From the NCBI GenBank assembly GCA_018823045.1, contig JAHJIX010000017.1:1-50299 (forward strand): a DNA stretch of 50,299 bases, in the 5' to 3' direction. The stretch is from Patescibacteria group bacterium (GTDB lineage Bacteria > Patescibacteriota > Patescibacteriia > Magasanikbacterales > UBA922). The notes under the pieces are model-generated. The model saw only the letters and a program-made list of their open reading frames with translations. It had not been told where the DNA came from and ran no database searches. Positions 856 to 10,819 of the stretch are shown piece after piece (within the stretch, counting starts at the first letter, position 1; each line of letters starts with the position of its first letter). Both the position numbers and the translations under genes were made by a program.

Positions 856-1449
856 TTAATTAACTATATTATTTTTTAACCACAAAGCAAATTTCCTTAC
901 ACAACCACAGTCATCACCCTTTCTATTACTACTCCAATCCCCCATTTCTTCAGCTGTCATCTCTGCAAATGTTTTTGTTTTTCCTTCTGGAATAAATATT
1001 TTATGAATCTCTCCCCAGTTATGCGCCCCGAGTTCACCTCGTTCTTCTTCTGCAAGTCTCCCTCGAGTAATGGTTTCAAAAAAAACTGGTTCATCAAGTG
1101 TCTCATCCATATAGGCAACAGTATCTCGAAATTCACAACTTCTGTCAAGTCCAGATATTAACTTTAAAATTCCTTTATTTCCAATCGTTTCCATAGCAAA
1201 ATTCACATAAGCCTTTGGAAATCCATTTAATGCTGGAATATAAAATCCGCCATCTTGAGCAATACAAGGCTTTCCTATATGATCAAACGCATACAACACT
1301 TTTTCATGTGCAATCACCTTTGTTTCATCAGAGCGTGGTTCTGGAATTTCAATCTCTACTGACACCACATCAATATCTACCCCTTCAAAATTTCTATTGA
1401 GTGATATTATTTTTGCTTTATTTGTAGTTGCGAAGTGAATGTGTTTCAT
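856..1449 (-). CDS. rdgB: non-canonical purine NTP pyrophosphatase (Ham1/RdgB family)
   Basis: FATTNKAK N-terminal motif, QDGGFYIPALNGFP, WGEIHKIFIPEGKTKTFAEM. Confidence 0.85.
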   Translation of the reverse strand: MKHIHFATTNKAKIISLNRNFEGVDIDVVSVEIEIPEPRSDETKVIAHEKVLYAFDHIGKPCIAQDGGFYIPALNGFPKAYVNFAMETIGNKGILKLISGLDRSCEFRDTVAYMDETLDEPVFFETITRGRLAEEERGELGAHNWGEIHKIFIPEGKTKTFAEMTAEEMGDWSSNRKGDDCGCVRKFALWLKNNIVN

Positions 1450-1451
1450 AT

Positions 1452-1805
1452 TTACTCTATTTCTTTTGTTAACTTTTCATTCTCCCAATGCCGATCTTTA
1501 TCTCTCTTTGTCTTCTTTGCCATATTCTTTTTGAATGCTTCCGTGAGGTCTATTCCGCTTTGATTGGCAAGGCAAATAAGAACAAAAAGAACATCCGCCA
1601 TTTCATCAGCTAGTTCTCCTTTTTCAGCTCCTTTTTTGAAGCTTTGATCTCCGTGTGTTCTGATGAGGATACGGGAGAGTTCCCCTACTTCTTCCATGAG
1701 TTGCCCGAGGTTTGTAAGTTCAGAGAAATATCTGACTCCTATTTCTTTGATCCATTCATCTACCTCCGTTTGAGCTTCGCTCAGGGTTATGTTTTGGTTT
1801 GGCAT
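1452..1805 (-). CDS. MazG-like nucleotide pyrophosphohydrolase
   Basis: LMEEVGELSR and ELADEMADVLF motifs of the MazG all-alpha NTP-PPase fold. Confidence 0.9.
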   Translation of the reverse strand: MPNQNITLSEAQTEVDEWIKEIGVRYFSELTNLGQLMEEVGELSRILIRTHGDQSFKKGAEKGELADEMADVLFVLICLANQSGIDLTEAFKKNMAKKTKRDKDRHWENEKLTKEIE

Positions 1806-1806
1806 A

Positions 1807-2319
1807 TTATTTCTTCAATAATAAATCACTATAAGAAAGAGAAATCAAATCCTCTTCACAAATTTCAAATAAATTAAGATAAAAATTACATTGTTCAAGT
1901 AATTTTTCTTTTCCTATAGAACCATCCTTATCAATAGCCTCAATCTCTACAAAGGTTCCTAAATCTTCTACCACATCAATATGAAATTTCACATTATCAA
2001 TAAAGTAAATTTCTCTTTTCTTATCAACTATAGTAAGAATGCCAAGCGATTTTGTTAAAATATCTTTTAAAGAAGAATTTGGAACAAAATTATAAAGAGT
2101 AACATCTGACTGTTTCGGTCCTTCTTTATTTTCTCTTTGATAATGAATTAATTTATTTTCAATATTTCCTTCTCGAAGTTTTAATCTTCCATTGTTAACC
2201 TTAAAATATGTATCAATTTGATGGTCCACTCCCTTAAAATCTGCATTTTTTGATTTCAAAATATCTCGAATAGCTTCTTGATTATTTGATTTTGCCTTAA
2301 TTTCAATATTTAGTTCCAT
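1807..2319 (-). CDS. cyaB: CYTH-domain protein (class IV adenylate cyclase-like)
   Basis: NIEIKAK, QIDTYF, RLKLRE, KKREIY, LGTFVEIE motifs; start set to MELNIEIK at 2319. Confidence 0.88.
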   Translation of the reverse strand: MELNIEIKAKSNNQEAIRDILKSKNADFKGVDHQIDTYFKVNNGRLKLREGNIENKLIHYQRENKEGPKQSDVTLYNFVPNSSLKDILTKSLGILTIVDKKREIYFIDNVKFHIDVVEDLGTFVEIEAIDKDGSIGKEKLLEQCNFYLNLFEICEEDLISLSYSDLLLKK

Positions 2320-2827
2320 ATTCATTATCATTTAATTTTTTAATAATATTTTCCACTAATTTTTCTACAGGTTTATCTGTAATTATTTCTATCTTCCTCC
2401 CAGGCAATTTTGAATAATCAACATCTTTTGGTGTAAGATTTTTAAGCAACTTTTTATCAGCCTCTCTGTGACAATCATGCCTTTCTCTTGTCAGGATCCT
2501 TTTTTTTCTTGTTTCAACATCAGCGCTACAAATTATACAAGTTAAATCAATTTTATATTTTTTTTGCCATTTTTTTAGAATTTTTCTATCACCTTCAAAA
2601 ATAAAGGGAGATTCCATTATCAAATCTACATTGTTTTTGACTTGATCTTCAGCAAGATGAAAATACAACTTATAACTGTCTTCCGTATGAAAATTTAATT
2701 TTTCGTATAAACCAGCTTTGATAGTGTCTTTGTGCAAACAACAAATATTAAGCCTCTTTGATAATTCACGAGCAAGCGTGCTTTTTCCTGTACCAGCAAG
2801 TCCGCAAATGATTATTAATTTACTCAT
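2303..2827 (-). CDS. P-loop kinase (AAA_33 / gluconate-shikimate kinase-like)
   Basis: Walker A GLAGTGKST at the N-terminus; R..R..R lid-like segment. Confidence 0.8.
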   Translation of the reverse strand: MSKLIIICGLAGTGKSTLARELSKRLNICCLHKDTIKAGLYEKLNFHTEDSYKLYFHLAEDQVKNNVDLIMESPFIFEGDRKILKKWQKKYKIDLTCIICSADVETRKKRILTRERHDCHREADKKLLKNLTPKDVDYSKLPGRKIEIITDKPVEKLVENIIKKLNDNEYGTKY

Positions 2828-2855
2828 AGCATAATTCTATTATTTAAAACTTTTC

Positions 2856-2910
2856 TAATTGTGCAGCGGCCGTTGCACAATTATGAACTATGGCGAATTC
2901 GCCACAATTA
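2856..2910. repeat. two adjacent palindromes sharing a CACAATTA arm
   Basis: TAATTGTGCA-N8-TGCACAATTA (2856-2883) and TGGCGAATTCGCCA-CAATTA (2891-2910). Confidence 0.55.
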
Positions 2911-2932
2911 AGCTATATCGTCCCCTACCTTT

Positions 2933-3403
2933 TTAAACCGAATAAACAACAATATAAGGATGATCACTTCCCACGCTCATCGGAATACCCGCAAATTCTC
3001 CATTTTTTATCACATCAGGATTATTCATATTCCTTTCACGAATAAAAAACACTTCTGCATCATATTTATTATCAATAAACTTCTTATTTCTATATGCCAA
3101 ATTCATTTCATCATCTGGAAAAGGTTTTCCATCTGGCTCTCTTAGAAGCCAATTAGGAATAACATAATCATCTGAGACAAACACAATAAAATCAAAATCA
3201 GAATAAAGGCTTCCCCGAAATCCTGGTTCTTCATACTTTCCAAATGTTCCTTTGACAGAAGATCCCATCATTGTAATTTTGAGTATTCCTTCATCAGGCA
3301 AAAGTAAATTTTTTATCTTTTCAATCGCCTTTTCACGAAGTTCTAATTGTTTTTCTTGTGAAAAAGGTGTTTTTGGTGGGCGGGTTTTTAGGTGTTGTTC
3401 CAT
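2933..3403 (-). CDS. nucleotidyltransferase-domain protein (Pol beta superfamily)
   Basis: GS...SDFDFIV motif (MGSSVKG...YSDFDF). Confidence 0.7.
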   Translation of the reverse strand: MEQHLKTRPPKTPFSQEKQLELREKAIEKIKNLLLPDEGILKITMMGSSVKGTFGKYEEPGFRGSLYSDFDFIVFVSDDYVIPNWLLREPDGKPFPDDEMNLAYRNKKFIDNKYDAEVFFIRERNMNNPDVIKNGEFAGIPMSVGSDHPYIVVYSV

Positions 3404-3480
3404 ATTGTCATATTTTTATTGTGAAAATATTGTTGTAATTAAAGTTTTGTTGTGATTTTAAATTTTGATTACTTCGTTCT

Positions 3481-3506
3481 GAGACGCAGCGGTGCGGGGT
3501 CTCTAC
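3481..3506 (-). repeat. GTAG-family REP (degenerate)
   Basis: Reverse complement GTAGAGACCCCGCACCGCTGCGTCTC: GTAG tag plus GAGAC/GTCTC stem. Confidence 0.6.
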
Positions 3507-3665
3507 GGGGTATTATTTATAGTTTTCATCCTCTTTCCAAAACAAAGATAATCTTGAATTTGATTTTTTATTTTTGTGTAAATTGATTTATAAGATCTAA
3601 TTATAATAAATACAAAAGCTGATCTTAATTTATAAAAAATATTGAATTTTCAAATCTGTTCGTCT

Positions 3666-3692
3666 GTAGAGACGTCAGCACTGCTGCGTCTT
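3666..3692 (+). repeat. GTAG-family REP
   Basis: GTAG-AGACG-T-CAGCA-C-TGCTG-CGTCT hairpin. Confidence 0.65.
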
Positions 3693-3760
3693 GTCCTTTG
3701 CATTGTTCTTTAAATAATTTTTAATTCTATTATTTTCATTACCTTAACCAATTGTCATAT

Positions 3761-4141
3761 CTAAGCAAAGAATGAAAATAAAATAATTATCAGTAATAAG
3801 ATTAAAAGCAAAACAAAATATTTCTTAAAATATTGATCTTTCACTTCCCTACAAAATTCTTTTATTGTATTTATATTAAATTTTTTAGGAAATTGTTTTT
3901 TCATCTTATATAATCGAAAAGCAATACAGAATACTGATAAAATAAAAATAATTGATACTATTCCCAAAAGATACATATCATATATACCAAAACACGGAAA
4001 TGAATTTTCAATACTTTGTTCACATGGGAAAAAGATATTAACGATAGCACCAAAGAAAAGAGTAGCGCCATCAATAAAATATAATAGTATTGAAGACAAT
4101 GCTATGATAAGAGGGGCTTTTATTTCTTTATATATTGACAT
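3761..4141 (-). CDS. hypothetical membrane protein
   Basis: 126-aa ORF with three hydrophobic segments; part of the co-directional array. Confidence 0.65.
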   Translation of the reverse strand: MSIYKEIKAPLIIALSSILLYFIDGATLFFGAIVNIFFPCEQSIENSFPCFGIYDMYLLGIVSIIFILSVFCIAFRLYKMKKQFPKKFNINTIKEFCREVKDQYFKKYFVLLLILLLIIILFSFFA

Positions 4142-4415
4142 ATTTTTTTAAAAATTGAATTAGCATATAAATTATTAAAGATAAAAGAAGAACATTCAAC
4201 CCAAAAAGTATATAAGACATCTCTTCTCCCCAAACACCACACCAATAAAATGGAATTGGGAACCCTCCCCATCCTTCAATTATTCCTCCAGTATCTGATA
4301 TCGTACATTTTGTACCAATGCCTTTACTTAGTATAGTAAAAACAAATCCAAATAACATACTGGAAATTATTTGAAAGATATGAGGTTTGTTTATTTTTTC
4401 ATTATCTTCTGTCAT
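4128..4415 (-). CDS. hypothetical membrane protein
   Basis: 95 aa, two TM segments flanking a GWGGFPIPF loop. Confidence 0.65.
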   Translation of the reverse strand: MTEDNEKINKPHIFQIISSMLFGFVFTILSKGIGTKCTISDTGGIIEGWGGFPIPFYWCGVWGEEMSYILFGLNVLLLSLIIYMLIQFLKKYVNI

Positions 4416-4427
4416 AATATTAAATAA

Positions 4428-4850
4428 TTACTTTATTTTTTTAACCATCAATATGCAATCAATATTCACTTCCTTTATGCTTTCAAATCCCAAACTTTTA
4501 TAAAAATCAACAGCTGACTTAACACTATTTGTACATATTTCATCAAAACCTTTTTGAATTGCATAATTAAATATTTCTTGCATGATTAACTTACCAAATC
4601 CCTTTTTTTGATAATTAATATTTGTAAAAACTCTTTCAACTTTGTTTTTTTTCAAAGTAGCCGTTGCATAGATATTATTTTCATCTTTCAAAATAAAACA
4701 ATCATTTTTATCTTCTAATAAAGCTTTTGGGTCAGATTGTTGAGTCATAAATTTTACACCTTCTGGACTGAGATTTAGTAATGGAATTACTTCTCGAATC
4801 ATATTTGATGTCATTTCTAAATCTTTTTTACTTATTTTTGTAATAATCAT
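4428..4850 (-). CDS. GNAT family N-acetyltransferase
   Basis: VFTNINYQKKGFGKLIM acetyl-CoA motif A and AVDFYKSLGF; start moved to MIITK at 4850. Confidence 0.85.
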   Translation of the reverse strand: MIITKISKKDLEMTSNMIREVIPLLNLSPEGVKFMTQQSDPKALLEDKNDCFILKDENNIYATATLKKNKVERVFTNINYQKKGFGKLIMQEIFNYAIQKGFDEICTNSVKSAVDFYKSLGFESIKEVNIDCILMVKKIK

Positions 4851-4919
4851 CCTAATTTCAGTTAATAAATGATAGTTTTTTATTAATTTCACCAAGACAT
4901 CCACCTTGAACCATATAAA

Positions 4920-5213
4920 TTACTTTTTTATTTTCTTTTTATATATTGTGATTACTACCTCCTGGATGATGAATACTGGAATAAAAATCAGAAAAAAATT
5001 GCTCCAAGGAATGAAAGTCGCTGGTGGATTGCAGGGAGGTTGCCCACTAGCGCATTTCCAAGGGAAGGAAACAATCATATTTTGCTGATTTTCTAGATTT
5101 AATAGTGTGAAGACCATTGCAATAGCTAACGTAATGATCAACGCAGCCAATAGCCGTGCTATCATTTTGTTTAAAGTATACTTTTTCATAATATTTTTAT
5201 TTATAATTCTCAT
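4920..5213 (-). CDS. hypothetical membrane protein
   Basis: 97 aa, two TM segments and a CASGQPPC loop. Confidence 0.6.
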   Translation of the reverse strand: MRIINKNIMKKYTLNKMIARLLAALIITLAIAMVFTLLNLENQQNMIVSFPWKCASGQPPCNPPATFIPWSNFFLIFIPVFIIQEVVITIYKKKIKK

Positions 5214-5233
5214 CCTCCTCCCAATTTTTGGGA

Positions 5234-6163
5234 TTATCTATTATATATTGTTGTATGTTTAGAAATTCTCGTAATAATTTCCTTTCTTAACATCACATGC
5301 GGGGTGATTGCTATTTTCTTTTCTCTATCAATATCAAATTCAGAAAAATATTTTTCCAGATAGTCCAATGTTCTATCATCATTACAAATAATAACATTTC
5401 TTTTTTTATCGAGTTCTATCAAATTTAAAAATGACACTTCTGAATTGGCTGATCGTAAAAATTGATCAATTTCTTCTTGAAAATTATCGATAATGTGTTT
5501 TGAATCCCACACTTCTAGTTGTACAATAAATAATTCTGGATTAATATATTTAGAATCATTTTTTAGAGAATCCAAAATATTTTTTTCTATACTTTCTTGA
5601 ACTTCTGAAAAATATTCTTCTTCAAATGTTGATGAGTAATCGAAGAATGTTTTTAATTCTTCATAGGCAATCTTATCTTCTTCTTTCGTTATTTTTGCTT
5701 GAAAATTTAAGGTATTTGACAGTATTGCCACTGCTAATAATTCAGCAGATGACGGAGAAATCTTTTCAAGTAGATTTTCCTTTTCATATTCTCTAAAAAT
5801 AAGCGTTGCTGCTGCTCCAATTGGTTCAATGACAGCATGTTCTCCTATTTTTTCACTCCAATAACTTTCAAAACCGGGATGATGATCAAAAATATGTGAA
5901 ACATTATCTAATTTTACAATTTTGTCAAAATGATCTGGATCAGAGACATCTATTACGACAAAATCCACATCCTCTACGCTTGCATCTGTTTTGTTAACAT
6001 TCAAGTCTTTATACTTTTGTGTGACACTTGAATTACATGCAGCCGTTACTACTATTTCTGCCTCCTCTTTTTTTAAATCGAGTAATTCCTTATATGCAAA
6101 AAGACAGGCAAAAGCATCTATATCTATAAAGGTACTCCCAGATGTTATTATTTTTTTTCTCAT
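5234..6163 (-). CDS. DHH-family phosphoesterase, Mn-dependent inorganic pyrophosphatase (PpaC-like)
   Basis: DIDAFAC, VIDVSD, FDHH motifs; C-terminal VMLRKEI resembles PpaC. Confidence 0.8.
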   Translation of the reverse strand: MRKKIITSGSTFIDIDAFACLFAYKELLDLKKEEAEIVVTAACNSSVTQKYKDLNVNKTDASVEDVDFVVIDVSDPDHFDKIVKLDNVSHIFDHHPGFESYWSEKIGEHAVIEPIGAAATLIFREYEKENLLEKISPSSAELLAVAILSNTLNFQAKITKEEDKIAYEELKTFFDYSSTFEEEYFSEVQESIEKNILDSLKNDSKYINPELFIVQLEVWDSKHIIDNFQEEIDQFLRSANSEVSFLNLIELDKKRNVIICNDDRTLDYLEKYFSEFDIDREKKIAITPHVMLRKEIITRISKHTTIYNR

Positions 6164-6196
6164 ATTTGTTTTTGTTTTATAAAATTTTCTATGATA

Positions 6197-6514
6197 TTAT
6201 CTCTTTAATGACAAATCATCGAAATCTTTCTCTAAATCCTTTTTTTGCTCATCACTAAGATTATCTTCAAATATGTTATCTATCTCTTCTTCCGATATAT
6301 TCATCTTCTTTATTATCGCTAATAACTTTATTTCATTACCAACTTGATAAACCCTAATTAATTTTCGTAAACAGTCAGTCCTCTTCTCTGATTGAATTAA
6401 ATAAATTACAAATGCATATAACAAAAACCATTCAATACTATCAAATAAAAATAATATTAAAAAAGCTACAGTAATTTCAATAAAGTAAGCTAAAACTATT
6501 TTATAAAATTTCAT
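6197..6514 (-). CDS. hypothetical membrane protein
   Basis: 105 aa, N-terminal TM pair, acidic C-terminus. Confidence 0.6.
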   Translation of the reverse strand: MKFYKIVLAYFIEITVAFLILFLFDSIEWFLLYAFVIYLIQSEKRTDCLRKLIRVYQVGNEIKLLAIIKKMNISEEEIDNIFEDNLSDEQKKDLEKDFDDLSLKR

Positions 6515-6530
6515 ATTTATTATTCCTATA

Positions 6531-6589
6531 ATAAATTAATCCACCTCTTCACCCTCTTCAAAGTCTCCTCTTGCCCCAAAACACCAGCA
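6531..6589 (-). repeat. relic duplicate of the gltX 3' end
   Basis: 6553-6589 matches gltX 7185-7221 at 36/37 nt; continues in frame as AGVLGQEETLKRVKRWINLL*. Confidence 0.85.
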
Positions 6590-6590
6590 G

Positions 6591-7127
6591 TTATTTCAAC
6601 TCAAAATTGTAGTGACGGATGATTTGTTCAACAGCAGCTTCAGGCGATATATTGCCACTTTCAATCACAAAAGTATTTGTCCCGGGGATAACTACATGAT
6701 TTTTTGCCTTCATTTGACTGCGCAATTTTTCTACAGTAGCTATTTTGCCTACAGGTGCTCGATCATCTTGTATAACTCGTTTCTCTAACACATCAATTGG
6801 GCAGGAAAGAAACACGTAATGTATTTCCCCATCATATTTTTCCATGATCGCCTGAATATTTTTCAAGTAGGGCAAAAAATCTGGATGTGAATATGCCCAA
6901 GTAAATATTAGACCATCAATCTGAGATTTTGCAGCTGTTTCGAAGACAAGATGTCGAACATCCCAGATGAGATTTTTAAAACCCGTAGTTCCAAAATCGA
7001 AGACTGAACGAGCTACATCTACACTAATGTGATTATGAAATAATCGAAATCCAGTTTTGCGAGACAGCTGCTTGGCTATTGTTAGCTTACCTGAAGCTTC
7101 AGGGCCATATATGATAATAAGTTTCAT
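6591..7127 (-). CDS. P-loop kinase (shikimate/nucleoside kinase-like AAA family)
   Basis: GPEASGKLT P-loop and LFHNH motif. Confidence 0.8.
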   Translation of the reverse strand: MKLIIIYGPEASGKLTIAKQLSRKTGFRLFHNHISVDVARSVFDFGTTGFKNLIWDVRHLVFETAAKSQIDGLIFTWAYSHPDFLPYLKNIQAIMEKYDGEIHYVFLSCPIDVLEKRVIQDDRAPVGKIATVEKLRSQMKAKNHVVIPGTNTFVIESGNISPEAAVEQIIRHYNFELK

Positions 7128-7154
7128 AGTCAGTCAATTTTTCTAATAGATTTA

Positions 7155-8627
7155 CTAAACCAACCCCTCAATTCCCTTCTTAATCCTCTTCAAAGTCTCC
7201 TCTTGCCCTAAAACACCAGCAATCTCAAAAGGACTTGGAGAATTCTTTCGTCCAGAGAGCGCTGTACGCATTGGCCAAAGCACATCCCCTACCCCAAAGT
7301 TATTATTTTGAATCCATTTTTTCATTTCATCTTCAAGTACCTCTTGTTTCCAAAAAGCAAAATTCTTGAGAAATTCATAAAGGAACTCTAATTTTTCTTT
7401 GCTTTCTTCTTTGGTCGCTTTTTTCCAAATGATGAGCTCAGGATCATATTCTAATTCTGTTGCAAAAATATAGCCAAGAGACTCTGGAAGCTCTGTAAAT
7501 ACCTCCATACGCTCTTTTTCGAGTGCTACGACGCTTTCAAGCCACTCCATATCTACATCATCACCCACGAGCCCAGCATTTTTTAGATATGGCAAAGAAT
7601 GGCGTGCAAAATCAATATTCGACATGCCCTTTATATATTGTTTATTATACCAAGCAAGCTTTTCACGGTTAAATACTGCTGCAGACTTCGCTACTTTGTC
7701 AAAATCAAATTCTTTTTCAAGTTCTGCAAGAGAAAAGATTTCTCTATCATCACCAGGATTCCAACCAAGAAAAGAAATAAAATTCACCAAAGCTTCAGGC
7801 AAATATCCTTTTTCTTTGAAATCTTCTACCGCTACGTCCCCATGACGCTTGCTGAGTTTTGCTTTTTGTTCGTTTACAAGAAGAGACAAATGCGCAAACT
7901 GAGGCGCTTCCCATCCAAACATTTCGTAGAGCATAATATGCTTTGGTGTTGAAGAAATCCATTCTTCTCCGCGGATGACATGAGTGATTTCCATCAAATG
8001 ATCGTCCACTACCACCGCAAAGTGATAAGTTGGGAAACCATCAGACTTCATGAGTACTTGATCATCAATAAGCTCATTTTTGAATTCAACTTCTCCGCGT
8101 ACCATATCAGTAAACTTCGTTACACCTTCCTTTGGCATTTTAAGACGGATAACATGACTTTCTCCTGCTGCAATCTTTGCATCCACTTCTTCTTTGCTGA
8201 GTTCTCGACAATGTCCATCATATCCTGTAGGCATTTTGTTGAGTTCTTGCATTTTTCTTACCTCATCAAGTCGCTCTTTCCCACAAAAACAATGATAAGC
8301 ATGCCCTTTTTCTAGAAGCACATCCATGTTTTCTTTATAAATAGGAAGACGCTCTGACTGAATATATGGTCCATGATCTCCTAATTGAACAGTGTTTCCA
8401 AGTGGATCAAGAGTTACGCCTTCATCAATTTCAATTCCTCCCCATGCGAGAGACTTTACCATAGCTTCTATACTTCCTTCTACAAGGCGTGCTCTATCCG
8501 TATCTTCTACCCGAAGAACAAAGCTTCCATTATGCTTTTTGGCATATAAATAAGCATAGAGTGCTGTACGCAGGCTTCCAACATGTAAAAACCCAGTCGG
8601 TGATGGTGCAAATCTTGTTTTAATCAT
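7155..8627 (-). CDS. gltX: glutamate--tRNA ligase
   Basis: RFAPSPTGFLHVG (HIGH), LRVEDTD, IRGEEW, KLSKR (KMSKS). Confidence 0.98.
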   Translation of the reverse strand: MIKTRFAPSPTGFLHVGSLRTALYAYLYAKKHNGSFVLRVEDTDRARLVEGSIEAMVKSLAWGGIEIDEGVTLDPLGNTVQLGDHGPYIQSERLPIYKENMDVLLEKGHAYHCFCGKERLDEVRKMQELNKMPTGYDGHCRELSKEEVDAKIAAGESHVIRLKMPKEGVTKFTDMVRGEVEFKNELIDDQVLMKSDGFPTYHFAVVVDDHLMEITHVIRGEEWISSTPKHIMLYEMFGWEAPQFAHLSLLVNEQKAKLSKRHGDVAVEDFKEKGYLPEALVNFISFLGWNPGDDREIFSLAELEKEFDFDKVAKSAAVFNREKLAWYNKQYIKGMSNIDFARHSLPYLKNAGLVGDDVDMEWLESVVALEKERMEVFTELPESLGYIFATELEYDPELIIWKKATKEESKEKLEFLYEFLKNFAFWKQEVLEDEMKKWIQNNNFGVGDVLWPMRTALSGRKNSPSPFEIAGVLGQEETLKRIKKGIEGLV

Positions 8628-9343: not shown

Positions 9344-9360
9344 TTACAACTGAGACATAA
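9344..9360 (-). repeat. relic duplicate of the TrmH-family gene 3' end (MSQL*)
   Basis: TTATGTCTCAGTTGTAA versus TTATGTCTCAACTATAA at 10091-10107; 14/17 nt, all differences synonymous. Confidence 0.6.
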
Positions 9361-10090: not shown

Positions 10091-10819
10091 TTATAGTTGA
10101 GACATAACAATCCCCCCAGCAATCGCCACATTCAGTGACTCTGCTTGTCCTTTTCCGGGGATAGTGTAGCGTGTATCGACAAGAGAATCAACTTCTTTAG
10201 ATAATCCATGTGATTCACTTCCGAGTACCAGACAAACATTTCCTTGTGGCAGTGTTTGGAGTGGCTCTCCATCAAGAGAAAGACCAATACACTGATACCC
10301 AGCATCTTTTAGCTGATGAAATGCCTGATACTCAACATCAACATGTACCGGAAAATGAAACAATGACCCCATCGTGCTTCGTACTAATTTAGGATTATAC
10401 AAATCAACACAATGCTCAGATAAGATCACGCCAGCAACACCAAACCAATCTGCCGTACGAATGAGTGTACCTACATTGCCCGGATCTTTTAGTCCATCTA
10501 AATACAGAACTGGACCACCCTCAGGTAATTTACCCAAAGGAATTTTAGCAACTGCCATTACTCCAGGAAAAGTATCTGTACTACTCATTTGATTTGCATC
10601 TTTTACAGAAAGTCGCTCAACCGGTACTCCTTTTTTATATGCGCTAGCAATAATTGGTGCAATCGCATCATCTTGCTCTCGCCCTTCTTCAATATATACC
10701 GTTACCGTACTGTATGATGAAGCTAGCAGTTCTCCTACCCCTTTTACTCCTTCAACAATAAATTGCTGTTCTTCTCTGCGAAACTTTTTTTGCAATAATT
10801 TTTTGAGTTGTTTTTTCAT
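10091..10819 (-). CDS. TrmH/SpoU family RNA 2'-O-methyltransferase
   Basis: DPGNVGTLIRTADWFG, VLGSESHGL, ESLNVAIAG SPOUT motifs. Confidence 0.93.
   Translation of the reverse strand: MKKQLKKLLQKKFRREEQQFIVEGVKGVGELLASSYSTVTVYIEEGREQDDAIAPIIASAYKKGVPVERLSVKDANQMSSTDTFPGVMAVAKIPLGKLPEGGPVLYLDGLKDPGNVGTLIRTADWFGVAGVILSEHCVDLYNPKLVRSTMGSLFHFPVHVDVEYQAFHQLKDAGYQCIGLSLDGEPLQTLPQGNVCLVLGSESHGLSKEVDSLVDTRYTIPGKGQAESLNVAIAGGIVMSQL

What the first reader, a model, noticed from the sequence alone, without database searches (positions are those of the whole stretch)
6531..7221. Kinase gene inserted in the gltX 3' end, leaving a relic alternative C-terminus
Seen: 37 bp of gltX (7185-7221) recur at 6553-6589 with one mismatch, starting 1 nt after the kinase stop codon. 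The relic continues as a different tail (RVKRWINLL*) from the current one (RIKKGIEGLV*). No integrase lies nearby. Established: elements that integrate into 3' ends supply a replacement tail and displace the old one. Inference: a single-gene (~630 bp) acquisition used an essential aminoacyl-tRNA synthetase gene as its landing site, possibly by natural transformation with one-sided homology. The 7-kb co-directional array downstream may have grown the same way.
Basis: partly seen in the sequence, partly recalled or inferred. Interest (0 to 1): 0.65.

Follow-up and report, generated by a model that had tools for sequence, protein, structure and literature searches.

The report
Kinase gene inserted behind gltX
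In this tiny groundwater bacterium one foreign kinase gene was slipped in just behind the essential glutamyl-tRNA synthetase gene together with a spare copy of that gene's last codons, leaving the old gene end as a dead 63-base relic; this is a clean but fairly ordinary recombination scar, and no mobile element is present.

Summary
The repeat is real. 6553-6589 and 7185-7221 match at 36 of 37 bases, against 0 expected by chance, and the codon-aligned homology runs on to 52 nt at 88%. The same structure stands in four assemblies.

All genes read on the minus strand: gltX, 27 nt, a complete 178-aa P-loop kinase gene, 1 nt, a 63-nt gltX end relic (AGVLGQEETLKRVKRWINLL*), 11 nt, then p105.

In the sister species gltX is followed 1 nt later by the p105 homologue, with no kinase (8 of 8 places). 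p105 has no other homologue in 5.8 billion proteins. The kinase occurs in 6 of 107 family genomes, and its nearest relatives (55-63%) are in Chloroflexota. So a 632-bp single-gene insertion is well supported.

The mechanism is inferred. A duplicated homology segment is what a single crossover of a small circular or circularised DNA leaves; one-sided-homology events are expected to delete. No recombinase lies within 75 kb.

No further gltX relics lie in the downstream array.

The same genome has similar scars at alaS, nrdB and probably trmH.

Verdict: a new member of a known kind, of moderate interest.

The parts
7155..8627 (-). gltX, glutamyl-tRNA synthetase, 490 aa, intact
   Evidence: Pfam tRNA-synt_1c at 3.5e-109 and Anticodon_2 at 2.7e-36. 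Orthologues are present in 40 of 41 relatives.
7185..7221 (-). Upstream copy of the 37-nt identity block, inside gltX (codons AGVLGQEETLKR)
   Evidence: It matches 6553-6589 at 36 of 37 bases.
7155..7184 (-). Current gltX tail, IKKGIEGLV plus stop. Under a simple insertion model this is the copy that came in with the insert.
   Evidence: It matches the tail of the closest relative L044 (RIKKGIEVLG) at 26 of 30 nt.
7128..7154 (-). 27-nt spacer between the gltX stop and the kinase start
   Evidence: It has no significant similarity to the relic-to-p105 spacer (p = 0.16).
6591..7127 (-). Cargo: a complete 178-aa P-loop small-molecule kinase of unknown substrate (Walker A GPEASGKLT)
   Evidence: It aligns over its full length with 16 homologues. 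The AlphaFold model has pLDDT 90.5. Foldseek matches sugar, gluconate, shikimate and APS kinases and TmrD at TM 0.6-0.72. No Pfam or NCBIfam family reaches its cut-off.
6553..6589 (-). Downstream copy of the 37-nt block, non-coding, starting 1 nt after the kinase stop
6526..6552 (-). Relic tail VKRWINLL plus TAG. It is a diverged but codon-aligned gltX end and keeps the family pattern R-[IV]-x-x-x-I-x-x-L.
   Evidence: Over its first 7 codons it matches the sister-species tail at 16 of 21 nt and the current tail at 14 of 21 nt (counted).
6515..6525 (-). 11-nt spacer to p105. An AGGA motif that overlaps the relic stop lies 9 nt before the p105 ATG and may be its ribosome-binding site (inference).
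   Evidence: Sequence read.
6197..6514 (-). p105, a genus-specific small membrane-like protein and the ancestral downstream neighbour of gltX
   Evidence: The only homologue cluster among 5.8 billion proteins is that of the sister species, at 62%. There it starts 1 nt after the gltX stop in 8 of 8 places.
9344..9360 (-). Probable second scar. The last codons of the SpoU/TrmH methyltransferase gene (MSQL*) recur 1 nt after the stop of the 235-aa membrane-protein gene.
   Evidence: 14 of 17 nt match and all differences are synonymous. Relatives have other genes, or none, between SpoU and gltX.

Best explanation
This is an insertion scar. In the ancestor, gltX ended in the RVKRWINLL-type tail and was followed about 11 nt later by p105, as it still is (at 1 nt) in the sister species.

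A 632-bp piece of DNA then entered by recombination within the 37-nt block. The piece consisted of a gltX 3' end from a related allele (the 37-nt block plus the RIKKGIEGLV tail), a 27-nt spacer and one complete kinase gene. The kinase itself had been acquired from outside the phylum.

The live gltX now finishes in the incoming tail. The old tail is stranded behind the kinase as a silent relic that still carries the signals in front of p105.

The most likely route (inferred) is a Campbell-type single crossover of a small circular or circularised fragment, made by the host's own RecA after DNA uptake. A duplicated homology segment flanking the insert is the product of that reaction. Nothing in or near the insert encodes mobility, so this is a scar of recombination and not a self-mobile element.

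Shown: the repeat, the order of the parts, the empty arrangement in the sister species, the foreign affinity of the kinase, and the absence of a nearby recombinase.

Inferred: which tail is the old one (about 60:40), the circular intermediate, and the enzyme.
For: - The repeat is real and unique and stands in four assemblies.
- The sister species G001 has SpoU, gltX, p105 and no kinase anywhere in its genome. The same holds in 8 of 8 places from several samples.
- p105 has only that one homologue cluster, so the gltX-p105 adjacency is ancestral.
- The kinase occurs in 6 of 107 family genomes, at 23-39% identity in the five other than this one. Its nearest homologues are at 55-63% in Chloroflexota/Anaerolineae and Gammaproteobacteria. 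None of 67 homologue loci has gltX within 4 kb.
- The relic tail keeps the codon register and the conserved pattern of real GltX tails, so it evolved as a working allele and not by decay. Identity drops sharply from 36/37 to about 60% at the block-tail boundary, which marks a breakpoint.
- gltX alleles in this genus are visibly mosaic in their 3' third. GltX and the neighbouring SpoU give opposite nearest relatives.
- In E. coli experiments designed to detect HFIR, 56 of 60 recombinants carried a duplication of the homologous segment, from a single crossover of a circular molecule. HFIR itself was expected to give deletions (PMC3240628).
- RecA and a ComEC channel are encoded in the genome.
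- At the parallel alaS scar, the 5' part of the relic is more divergent from the sister species than the live gene is, as expected if that part was carried by the incoming DNA.
Against: - No empty allele of this species and no gltX ending in the relic-type tail was found. All four assemblies carry the insert.
- The closest GltX known (87%) has the current-type tail. The opposite polarity therefore stays possible: the current tail native, and the relic plus p105 imported.
- A 37-nt identity is near the lower limit for RecA-dependent recombination (general knowledge).
- The origin of a 632-bp circle that begins 1 nt after a stop codon is unexplained.
- The kinase's G+C (37%) is like that of gltX (39%), so composition gives no independent sign of foreignness.
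Confidence: 0.6

Rival explanations
1. Homology-facilitated illegitimate recombination during natural transformation. A linear donor fragment anchored by homology inside gltX, and its heterologous end (just past the kinase stop) joined illegitimately to the recipient inside the gltX tail. The recipient's last 63 nt therefore survive downstream.
For: - ComEC and RecA are present.
- gltX 3' parts are mosaic among lineages.
- The intergenic gap is tiny (1-11 nt), so viable illegitimate joints that spare p105 would often fall inside the gltX tail.
- HFIR has been invoked for 3'-end displacement at T6SS and Rhs loci (PMC5361080).
- A 7-nt TTTTGAG match lies close to the joint on both sides.
Against: - HFIR is expected to delete recipient DNA. 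In the experiment read, duplications came from single crossovers of circles (PMC3240628).
- The TTTTGAG match is not at the joint (2 nt and 10 nt away) and is not significant (p = 0.25).
- The model does not explain why identity is 36/37 exactly in the overlap and then falls to about 60%.
Confidence: 0.2
2. Site-specific integration of a minimal non-autonomous cassette. The 37-nt block would be an att core. The cassette (replacement tail plus kinase) would be mobilised in trans by a tyrosine or serine recombinase encoded elsewhere, or would be the last remnant of a larger integrated element (CIME-like).
For: - The architecture is that of attL and attR at the 3' end of a gene, with a replacement tail, as with e14 in icd (PMC13626634).
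- The genome encodes two full tyrosine recombinases and one large serine recombinase.
- Three more 3'-end scars lie in the same genome.
- In two of the four scars the relic starts exactly 1 nt after the cargo's stop codon, which looks non-random.
Against: - No recombinase lies within 75 kb.
- There are no inverted repeats or attC-like hairpins at the ends, and no terminator-like hairpins in the scan.
- None of 30 relatives has a second gltX tail downstream.
- None of 34 kinase homologue loci has flanking direct repeats of 14 nt or more, and none of 67 is near gltX.
- The four blocks share no common core.
- The insert fills the whole space between the repeats, which leaves no room for a deleted larger element's ends.
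Confidence: 0.15
3. Opposite polarity, or displacement in situ. gltX with the current tail, and the kinase behind it, were resident or arrived as a whole incoming allele. The relic would then be the last 63 nt of another gltX copy that came in with p105, or all that remains of the displaced resident gene.
For: - The current tail is the type seen in the closest GltX.
- GltX and SpoU phylogenetic affinities conflict: GltX is 87% to L044 and 66% to G001, whereas SpoU is 47% to L044 and 60% to G001. At least part of gltX has therefore moved between lineages.
Against: - The model needs two events instead of one.
- p105 is shared only with the sister species and sits directly behind gltX there, so the relic-plus-p105 unit looks vertical.
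- The 36/37 identity of the block would be a coincidence between two separately evolving alleles.
Confidence: 0.08
4. Chance similarity or an assembly artefact.
For: None. It is considered only because the data are metagenome assemblies.
Against: No match is expected by chance. The structure is identical in four assemblies from at least three read sets. The exact identity runs of 24 nt and 12 nt are shorter than the assembler's word, and the sequence upstream of the relic is kinase and not gltX, so reads must physically span the joint.
Confidence: 0.01

Closest known systems
e14 cryptic prophage in icd of E. coli K-12, with the icdC pseudogene (Hill et al. 1989, as described in PMC13626634)
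   Same: The insert lies in the 3' end of a housekeeping gene. It brings a replacement 3' end that keeps the gene intact. The displaced original end remains downstream as a non-coding relic, and direct repeats flank the insert.
   Different: e14 is 15 kb, encodes its own integrase and excises. Here the insert is 632 bp, carries one kinase gene and no recombinase, and excision could not be tested.
Insertion with long target duplication (Nobusato et al. 2000; Furuta, Abe and Kobayashi 2010, PMC2853133)
   Same: Genes are inserted with a direct duplication of more than 30 bp of target sequence. No other mobile element is present. Cases often overlap a gene's 3' end and occur mostly in naturally competent bacteria. 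The mechanism is unknown.
   Different: Those cases carry restriction-modification genes, and both repeat copies match the empty target almost perfectly. Here the cargo is a kinase, and the two copies diverge sharply after 37 nt, as two alleles would.
3'-end displacement at Rhs, CDI and T6SS effector loci, ascribed to homology-facilitated illegitimate recombination (PMC5361080)
   Same: A conserved 5' part acts as the homology anchor. A new 3' end plus cargo comes in, and the old 3' end is shifted downstream as an orphan.
   Different: Those are polymorphic toxin loci under diversifying selection and their orphans can be reused. Here the gene is an essential aminoacyl-tRNA synthetase and only its last 9 residues change.
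Single-crossover (Campbell-type) integration of circular DNA that carries a short chromosomal segment (PMC3240628)
   Same: The product is a duplication of the homologous segment on both sides of the inserted DNA, and each copy is a hybrid of donor and recipient.
   Different: The experimental duplications were 109-950 bp and came from a plasmid. Here the homology is 37 nt of near-identity (63 nt in all), and the circle is hypothetical.

Membership tests
Integrative element with its own site-specific recombinase (prophage, ICE or IME at a gene's 3' end) | Direct repeats (attL and attR) flank the insert, and one of them overlaps the 3' end of the target gene | tested here: met
   a 37-nt block with 1 mismatch, and 52 nt at 88%.
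Integrative element with its own site-specific recombinase (prophage, ICE or IME at a gene's 3' end) | A recombinase gene lies inside the element, next to an att site | tested here: not met
   The insert holds only the kinase. The nearest tyrosine and serine recombinase genes are at C15:87362 and C15:84700, about 78 kb away.
Integrative element with its own site-specific recombinase (prophage, ICE or IME at a gene's 3' end) | Excision: circle-junction or empty-site molecules exist in the population | not testable with these tools
All 4 assemblies carry the insert.
Insertion with long target duplication (PMC2853133) | The insert is flanked by a direct duplication of more than 30 bp and has no mobility genes | tested here: met
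Insertion with long target duplication (PMC2853133) | The empty site in a close relative has one copy, and both repeats match it | tested here: inconclusive
   The sister species has one copy and no insert. Its gltX end is too diverged (about 22 of 36 nt) to say which repeat copy it matches.
Homology-facilitated illegitimate recombination | The illegitimate joint lies at a short microhomology, and recipient DNA is deleted and not duplicated | tested here: not met
   Recipient DNA is duplicated. The TTTTGAG match lies 2 nt and 10 nt from the joint and is not significant. The expectation is taken from PMC3240628.
Integron gene cassette | An attC imperfect palindrome follows the ORF, with intI and attI nearby | tested here: not met
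   There is no inverted repeat at either end. Only 1 nt follows the ORF before the relic. The nearest recombinase gene of any kind found is about 78 kb away.
P-loop NMP-kinase-fold small-molecule kinases (the cargo) | Walker A motif and the five-stranded parallel-sheet kinase fold | tested here: met
   GPEASGKLT at residues 8-16. The model has pLDDT 90.5. Its top folds are sugar, gluconate, shikimate and APS kinases and TmrD.
P-loop NMP-kinase-fold small-molecule kinases (the cargo) | Membership of a curated family (shikimate kinase, AAA_33, CPT and others) above its cut-off | tested here: not met
   The best Pfam hit is SKI at 20.9 bits against a cut-off of 22.1. All NCBIfam hits are far below their cut-offs.

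The most novel reading that the evidence does not exclude
Candidate-phyla-radiation bacteria may gain genes through a recurrent route that needs no local recombinase. In this route, minimal cassettes of one to a few genes carry a mimic of the last 20-135 nt of a conserved housekeeping gene and land in that gene's 3' end. This one 1.16-Mb genome would then hold four such landings: gltX, alaS, nrdB and trmH. Earlier notes of this scan describe look-alikes at uvrB, metG, serS, secA, alaS and a DNA ligase gene in other CPR and DPANN genomes.
Probability: 0.18. Interest if true: 0.7.

Novelty: new member of a known kind. Interest (0 to 1): 0.35.

Why it matters
Taken alone, this is a tidy example of how a streamlined, uncultured bacterium adds a single foreign gene without breaking an essential gene or its downstream neighbour. 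The scar records both alleles that took part.

Its wider value lies in recurrence. The same genome has at least three clear scars of this kind and a probable fourth, all behind conserved housekeeping genes. If that pattern holds across CPR genomes, it would describe a main route of gene gain in organisms with few classical mobile elements. It would also give a simple sequence signature for dating and counting such gains.

The cargo itself belongs to a widespread, uncharacterised kinase family that appears to move between phyla.

Tried and rejected
- Search for closer relatives or an empty allele:
  - A degenerate-pattern scan of metagenome contigs gave 15 hits, none from a close relative.
  - An exact-protein look-up of p105 found only contigs that carry the insert.
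  - A homologue search with p105 found only the sister species.
- Extension of the homology beyond the repeat on either side: not significant (p = 0.16 and p = 0.25).
- Integron or hairpin-ended element: no inverted repeats at the ends, and the terminator scan found no hairpins.
- The kinase as a self-mobile cassette: no flanking direct repeats in 34 homologue loci, and no linkage to gltX in 67.
- Recurrence at gltX in relatives: none of 30 loci has a second tail within 1.5 kb.
- Composition as evidence of foreignness: the kinase's G+C equals that of gltX, so it is uninformative.
- Decay of a once-perfect duplication: rejected. Differences are 1 in 37 in the block against about 40% in the tail, and the relic tail keeps the pattern of a working GltX end.
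- Stop-codon read-through of the kinase into the relic: the frames differ, so it would not give the gltX tail.
- Naming the kinase: sequence searches against PDB, Pfam and NCBIfam gave only P-loop-level hits. The fold search gave the general kinase class only.
Full report
**Observation**

All genes in this part of the window read on the minus strand. gltX (7155-8627, 490 aa) is followed by a 27-nt spacer and a 178-aa P-loop protein gene (6591-7127). One base after that gene comes a stretch that repeats the end of gltX.

The repeat 6553-6589 / 7185-7221 is 37 nt with one mismatch. Ungapped similarity runs to 52 nt at 88%. In 100 dinucleotide-preserving shuffles of the window, nothing matched the 37-mer even with 3 mismatches. 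The whole genome holds only these two copies.

In the gltX frame the downstream copy reads AGVLGQEETLKRVKRWINLL and stops at 6526-6528. The live gene ends AGVLGQEETLKRIKKGIEGLV. Eleven bases after the relic's stop the 105-aa gene (p105, 6197-6514) begins.

The locus is identical in two Logan assemblies and in an NCBI MAG, the last with 1 mismatch in 6.8 kb. All four contigs that encode the exact p105 protein carry the same arrangement. The exact identity runs are 24 nt and 12 nt, and the sequence in front of the relic is kinase and not gltX. A false assembly join is therefore not credible.

**Organism and setting**

The window is the start of a 149-kb contig of a 1.16-Mb, 35% G+C genome of the Magasanikbacteria group of Patescibacteria.

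In most family members gltX is followed by a gene of about 415 aa. In this genus that position is variable:
- The four closest GltX proteins (87, 81, 75 and 66% identity) are each followed by a different gene.
- Between SpoU and gltX the content also differs from genome to genome.

**Is the kinase an insertion?**

Yes, with good support.

- The only other species of the genus in the genome set (G001) shares the frame ClpB, WecG, SpoU, gltX, p105 and, further on, a 189-aa lipoprotein gene.
- In G001 the p105 homologue (62% identity) starts 1 nt after the gltX stop. This holds in 8 of 8 places from several samples.
- p105 has no other homologue among 5.8 billion proteins. The gltX-p105 adjacency is therefore ancestral for the two species.
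- G001 has no kinase homologue anywhere.
- Within the family only 6 of 107 genomes have one; the five other than this genome match at 23-39% identity.
- The nearest homologues, at 55-63% identity, are in Chloroflexota/Anaerolineae and Gammaproteobacteria. More distant ones are in Acidobacteriota and Bathyarchaeia.
- None of 67 homologue loci has gltX within 4 kb.
- In several Chloroflexota genomes the kinase gene has a lower G+C than its surroundings, as if it wanders there too.

The kinase is full length at both ends. In this genome its G+C (37%) equals that of gltX (39%), so composition adds nothing.

**Which tail is the old one?**

Under a simple insertion between direct repeats, the current tail, the spacer and the kinase form the 632-bp insert. 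The relic tail is then the resident end that still abuts p105.

Two points favour this reading:
- The relic-plus-p105 unit mirrors the sister species' layout.
- Over its first seven codons the relic tail is slightly closer to the sister species' tail (16 of 21 nt, sharing AGG GTG) than to the current tail (14 of 21), counted.

One point is against it. The closest known GltX (87%, L044) ends RIKKGIEVLG, at 26 of 30 nt identical to the current tail.

The relic is not a decayed copy of the current tail. It differs at 1 of 37 positions in the block but at about 40% in the tail. It also keeps the codon register and the conserved R-[IV]-x-x-x-I-x-x-L pattern of working GltX ends. So two functional alleles met here.

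That fits the wider picture:
- GltX alleles of this genus are strongly mosaic in their 3' third. P0098, P0099 and P0100 are 92-100% identical over the first 320 columns, 5-59% over the next 120, and 88-100% at the end.
- This genome's 3' third resembles L044 (87% nt) but not G001 (about 55% nt).
- The neighbouring SpoU gives the opposite affinity: 60% to G001 and 47% to L044.

I put the odds that the relic is the resident tail at about 60:40.

**Mechanism (inferred)**

No recombinase is nearby. The genome's tyrosine recombinases lie at C17:127676 and C15:87362, with partial copies at two contig ends. Its one large serine recombinase lies at C15:84700, about 78 kb away.

The ends have no inverted repeats or hairpins, and there is no room for an attC site. 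So this is neither a transposon nor an integron cassette.

The decisive structural feature is that the homologous segment is duplicated on both sides of the insert.
- In E. coli experiments designed to detect homology-facilitated illegitimate recombination (HFIR), true HFIR was expected to delete target DNA. In fact 56 of 60 recombinants carried a duplication of the homologous segment, because a circular molecule had integrated by a single crossover (PMC3240628).
- The genome encodes RecA and a ComEC uptake channel.
- I therefore favour a Campbell-type single crossover, within the 37-nt block, of a small circular or circularised fragment carrying a related gltX end plus the kinase.
- A recombinase acting in trans on the same substrate would give the same product and cannot be excluded.
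It does not predict the sharp 36/37 block, and the nearby TTTTGAG match is neither at the joint nor significant.

**Parallel scars in the same genome**

A scan of all 917 ORFs of 120 aa or more looked for a copy of their last 45 residues in nearby non-coding DNA. It found two more clear cases.

- alaS (C11:6115-7956, Pfam tRNA-synt_2c) has a 135-nt relic 640 nt downstream. The last 62 nt of that relic have 1 mismatch.
- nrdB (C17:82784-83818) has a 58-nt relic, stop codon included, 3.1 kb downstream. The relic lies behind an island with an HTH-Fic gene.
- In the window itself, the last codons of the SpoU/TrmH gene (MSQL*) recur 1 nt after the stop of the 235-aa gene, with only synonymous changes. 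An earlier first-reader note had flagged this.
- At alaS the 5' part of the relic is more divergent from the sister species than the live gene is. A single crossover predicts this if that part arrived on the incoming DNA.

No further gltX relic exists, and none of 30 relatives has a second gltX tail. The suggestion that the 7-kb array grew by repeated landings at gltX has no trace. The block between p105 and the 189-aa gene is, however, entirely different in the sister species.

**The cargo**

The protein has a Walker A motif (GPEASGKLT) and belongs to a well-conserved family. That family reaches no Pfam or NCBIfam cut-off and has no sequence relative in the PDB beyond the P-loop.

A confident model (pLDDT 90.5) matches sugar, gluconate, shikimate and APS kinases and the tunicamycin-resistance protein TmrD. 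The TM-scores are 0.6-0.72 and sequence identity is 11-20%. It is a small-molecule kinase of unknown substrate.

**Comparison with what is known**

The layout is that of e14 in icd with its icdC relic (PMC13626634), but without the element. It also resembles two other known patterns:
- the recombinase-free 'insertion with long target duplication' described for restriction-modification genes (PMC2853133);
- the 3'-end displacement seen at Rhs and T6SS loci (PMC5361080).

It is a new instance of a known kind of scar, in a lineage where I found no published description. Earlier notes of this scan list similar scars in other CPR and DPANN genomes. These are unchecked leads and I did not use them as evidence.

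**Limits**

No relative closer than 87% GltX identity was found. The polarity of the event and the enzyme remain inferences.

**Verdict**

This is a new member of a known kind, with interest 0.35. The recurrent-landing-pad reading has about an 18% chance and would be clearly more interesting if true.

Noticed in passing
window 9344-9360 (with 10091-10107): The last codons of the SpoU/TrmH methyltransferase gene (ATG TCT CAA CTA TAA, MSQL*) recur as ATG TCT CAG TTG TAA 1 nt after the stop of the 235-aa membrane-protein gene. This looks like a second, shorter tail-duplication scar. Relatives have other genes, or none, between SpoU and gltX.
   Followed up: partly
G000 contig C11:5352-5474 and 6115-7956 (locus L105): The alanyl-tRNA synthetase gene has a 135-nt copy of its own 3' end 640 nt downstream. 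The last 62 nt of that copy have 1 mismatch and the first 70 nt are about 80% identical. The intervening DNA has GC-rich hairpin repeats and only a 59-aa ORF on the opposite strand.
   Followed up: partly
G000 contig C17:79607-79664 and 82782-82839 (locus L106): The last 58 nt of nrdB, stop codon included, recur 3.1 kb downstream. They lie behind an island with an HTH-Fic gene, two GC-rich ORFs without family matches and two small paralogous ORFs. A tRNA-Leu gene lies just beyond.
   Followed up: partly
proteins P0096-P0100; loci L010 and L044: GltX of this genus is strongly mosaic. Three alleles are 92-100% identical over the catalytic domain, 5-59% in the first half of the anticodon-binding domain, and 88-100% at the end. 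The G001 allele carries an insertion of about 53 aa there. GltX and the adjacent SpoU give conflicting nearest relatives.
   Followed up: partly
window 856-6163, compared with L124 6457-10561: The ten co-directional genes between p105 and the 189-aa lipoprotein gene are DHH, GNAT, a second P-loop kinase, CYTH, MazG, Ham1 and small ORFs. None has a counterpart in the sister species, which has creatininase-like, MazG-like and RhuM-like genes in the same slot. This is a flexible islet bracketed by conserved genes.
   Followed up: partly
G000 contig C7:45299-45840 and C13:1-230: A 37-nt repeat (ATCTACAAAAGTAGAAATTGGATGTATGTTTTAAAC) recurs about every 63 nt at two contig ends. It looks like a CRISPR array with unusually short spacers, split by the assembly.
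   Followed up: no
G000 contig C20:88629-89718 and C8:1595-4764: 119-nt direct repeats (4 mismatches) flank a single 215-aa gene on C20. Direct repeats of about 180 nt (near perfect) flank three genes on C8. These are further repeat-bounded gene blocks, without an obvious 3'-end relic.
   Followed up: no
loci L042, L046, L047, L050: In Chloroflexota genomes the homologous kinase gene has a G+C 5-11 points below its own surroundings. The kinase family may therefore be a frequent horizontal traveller there as well.
   Followed up: no
window 7214-7220 and 6582-6588: On the coding strand the repeated block begins TGCTGGTG. GCTGGTG is 7 of the 8 bases of the E. coli Chi site (recalled from memory). 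It encodes Ala-Gly-Val and is probably a coincidence.
   Followed up: no
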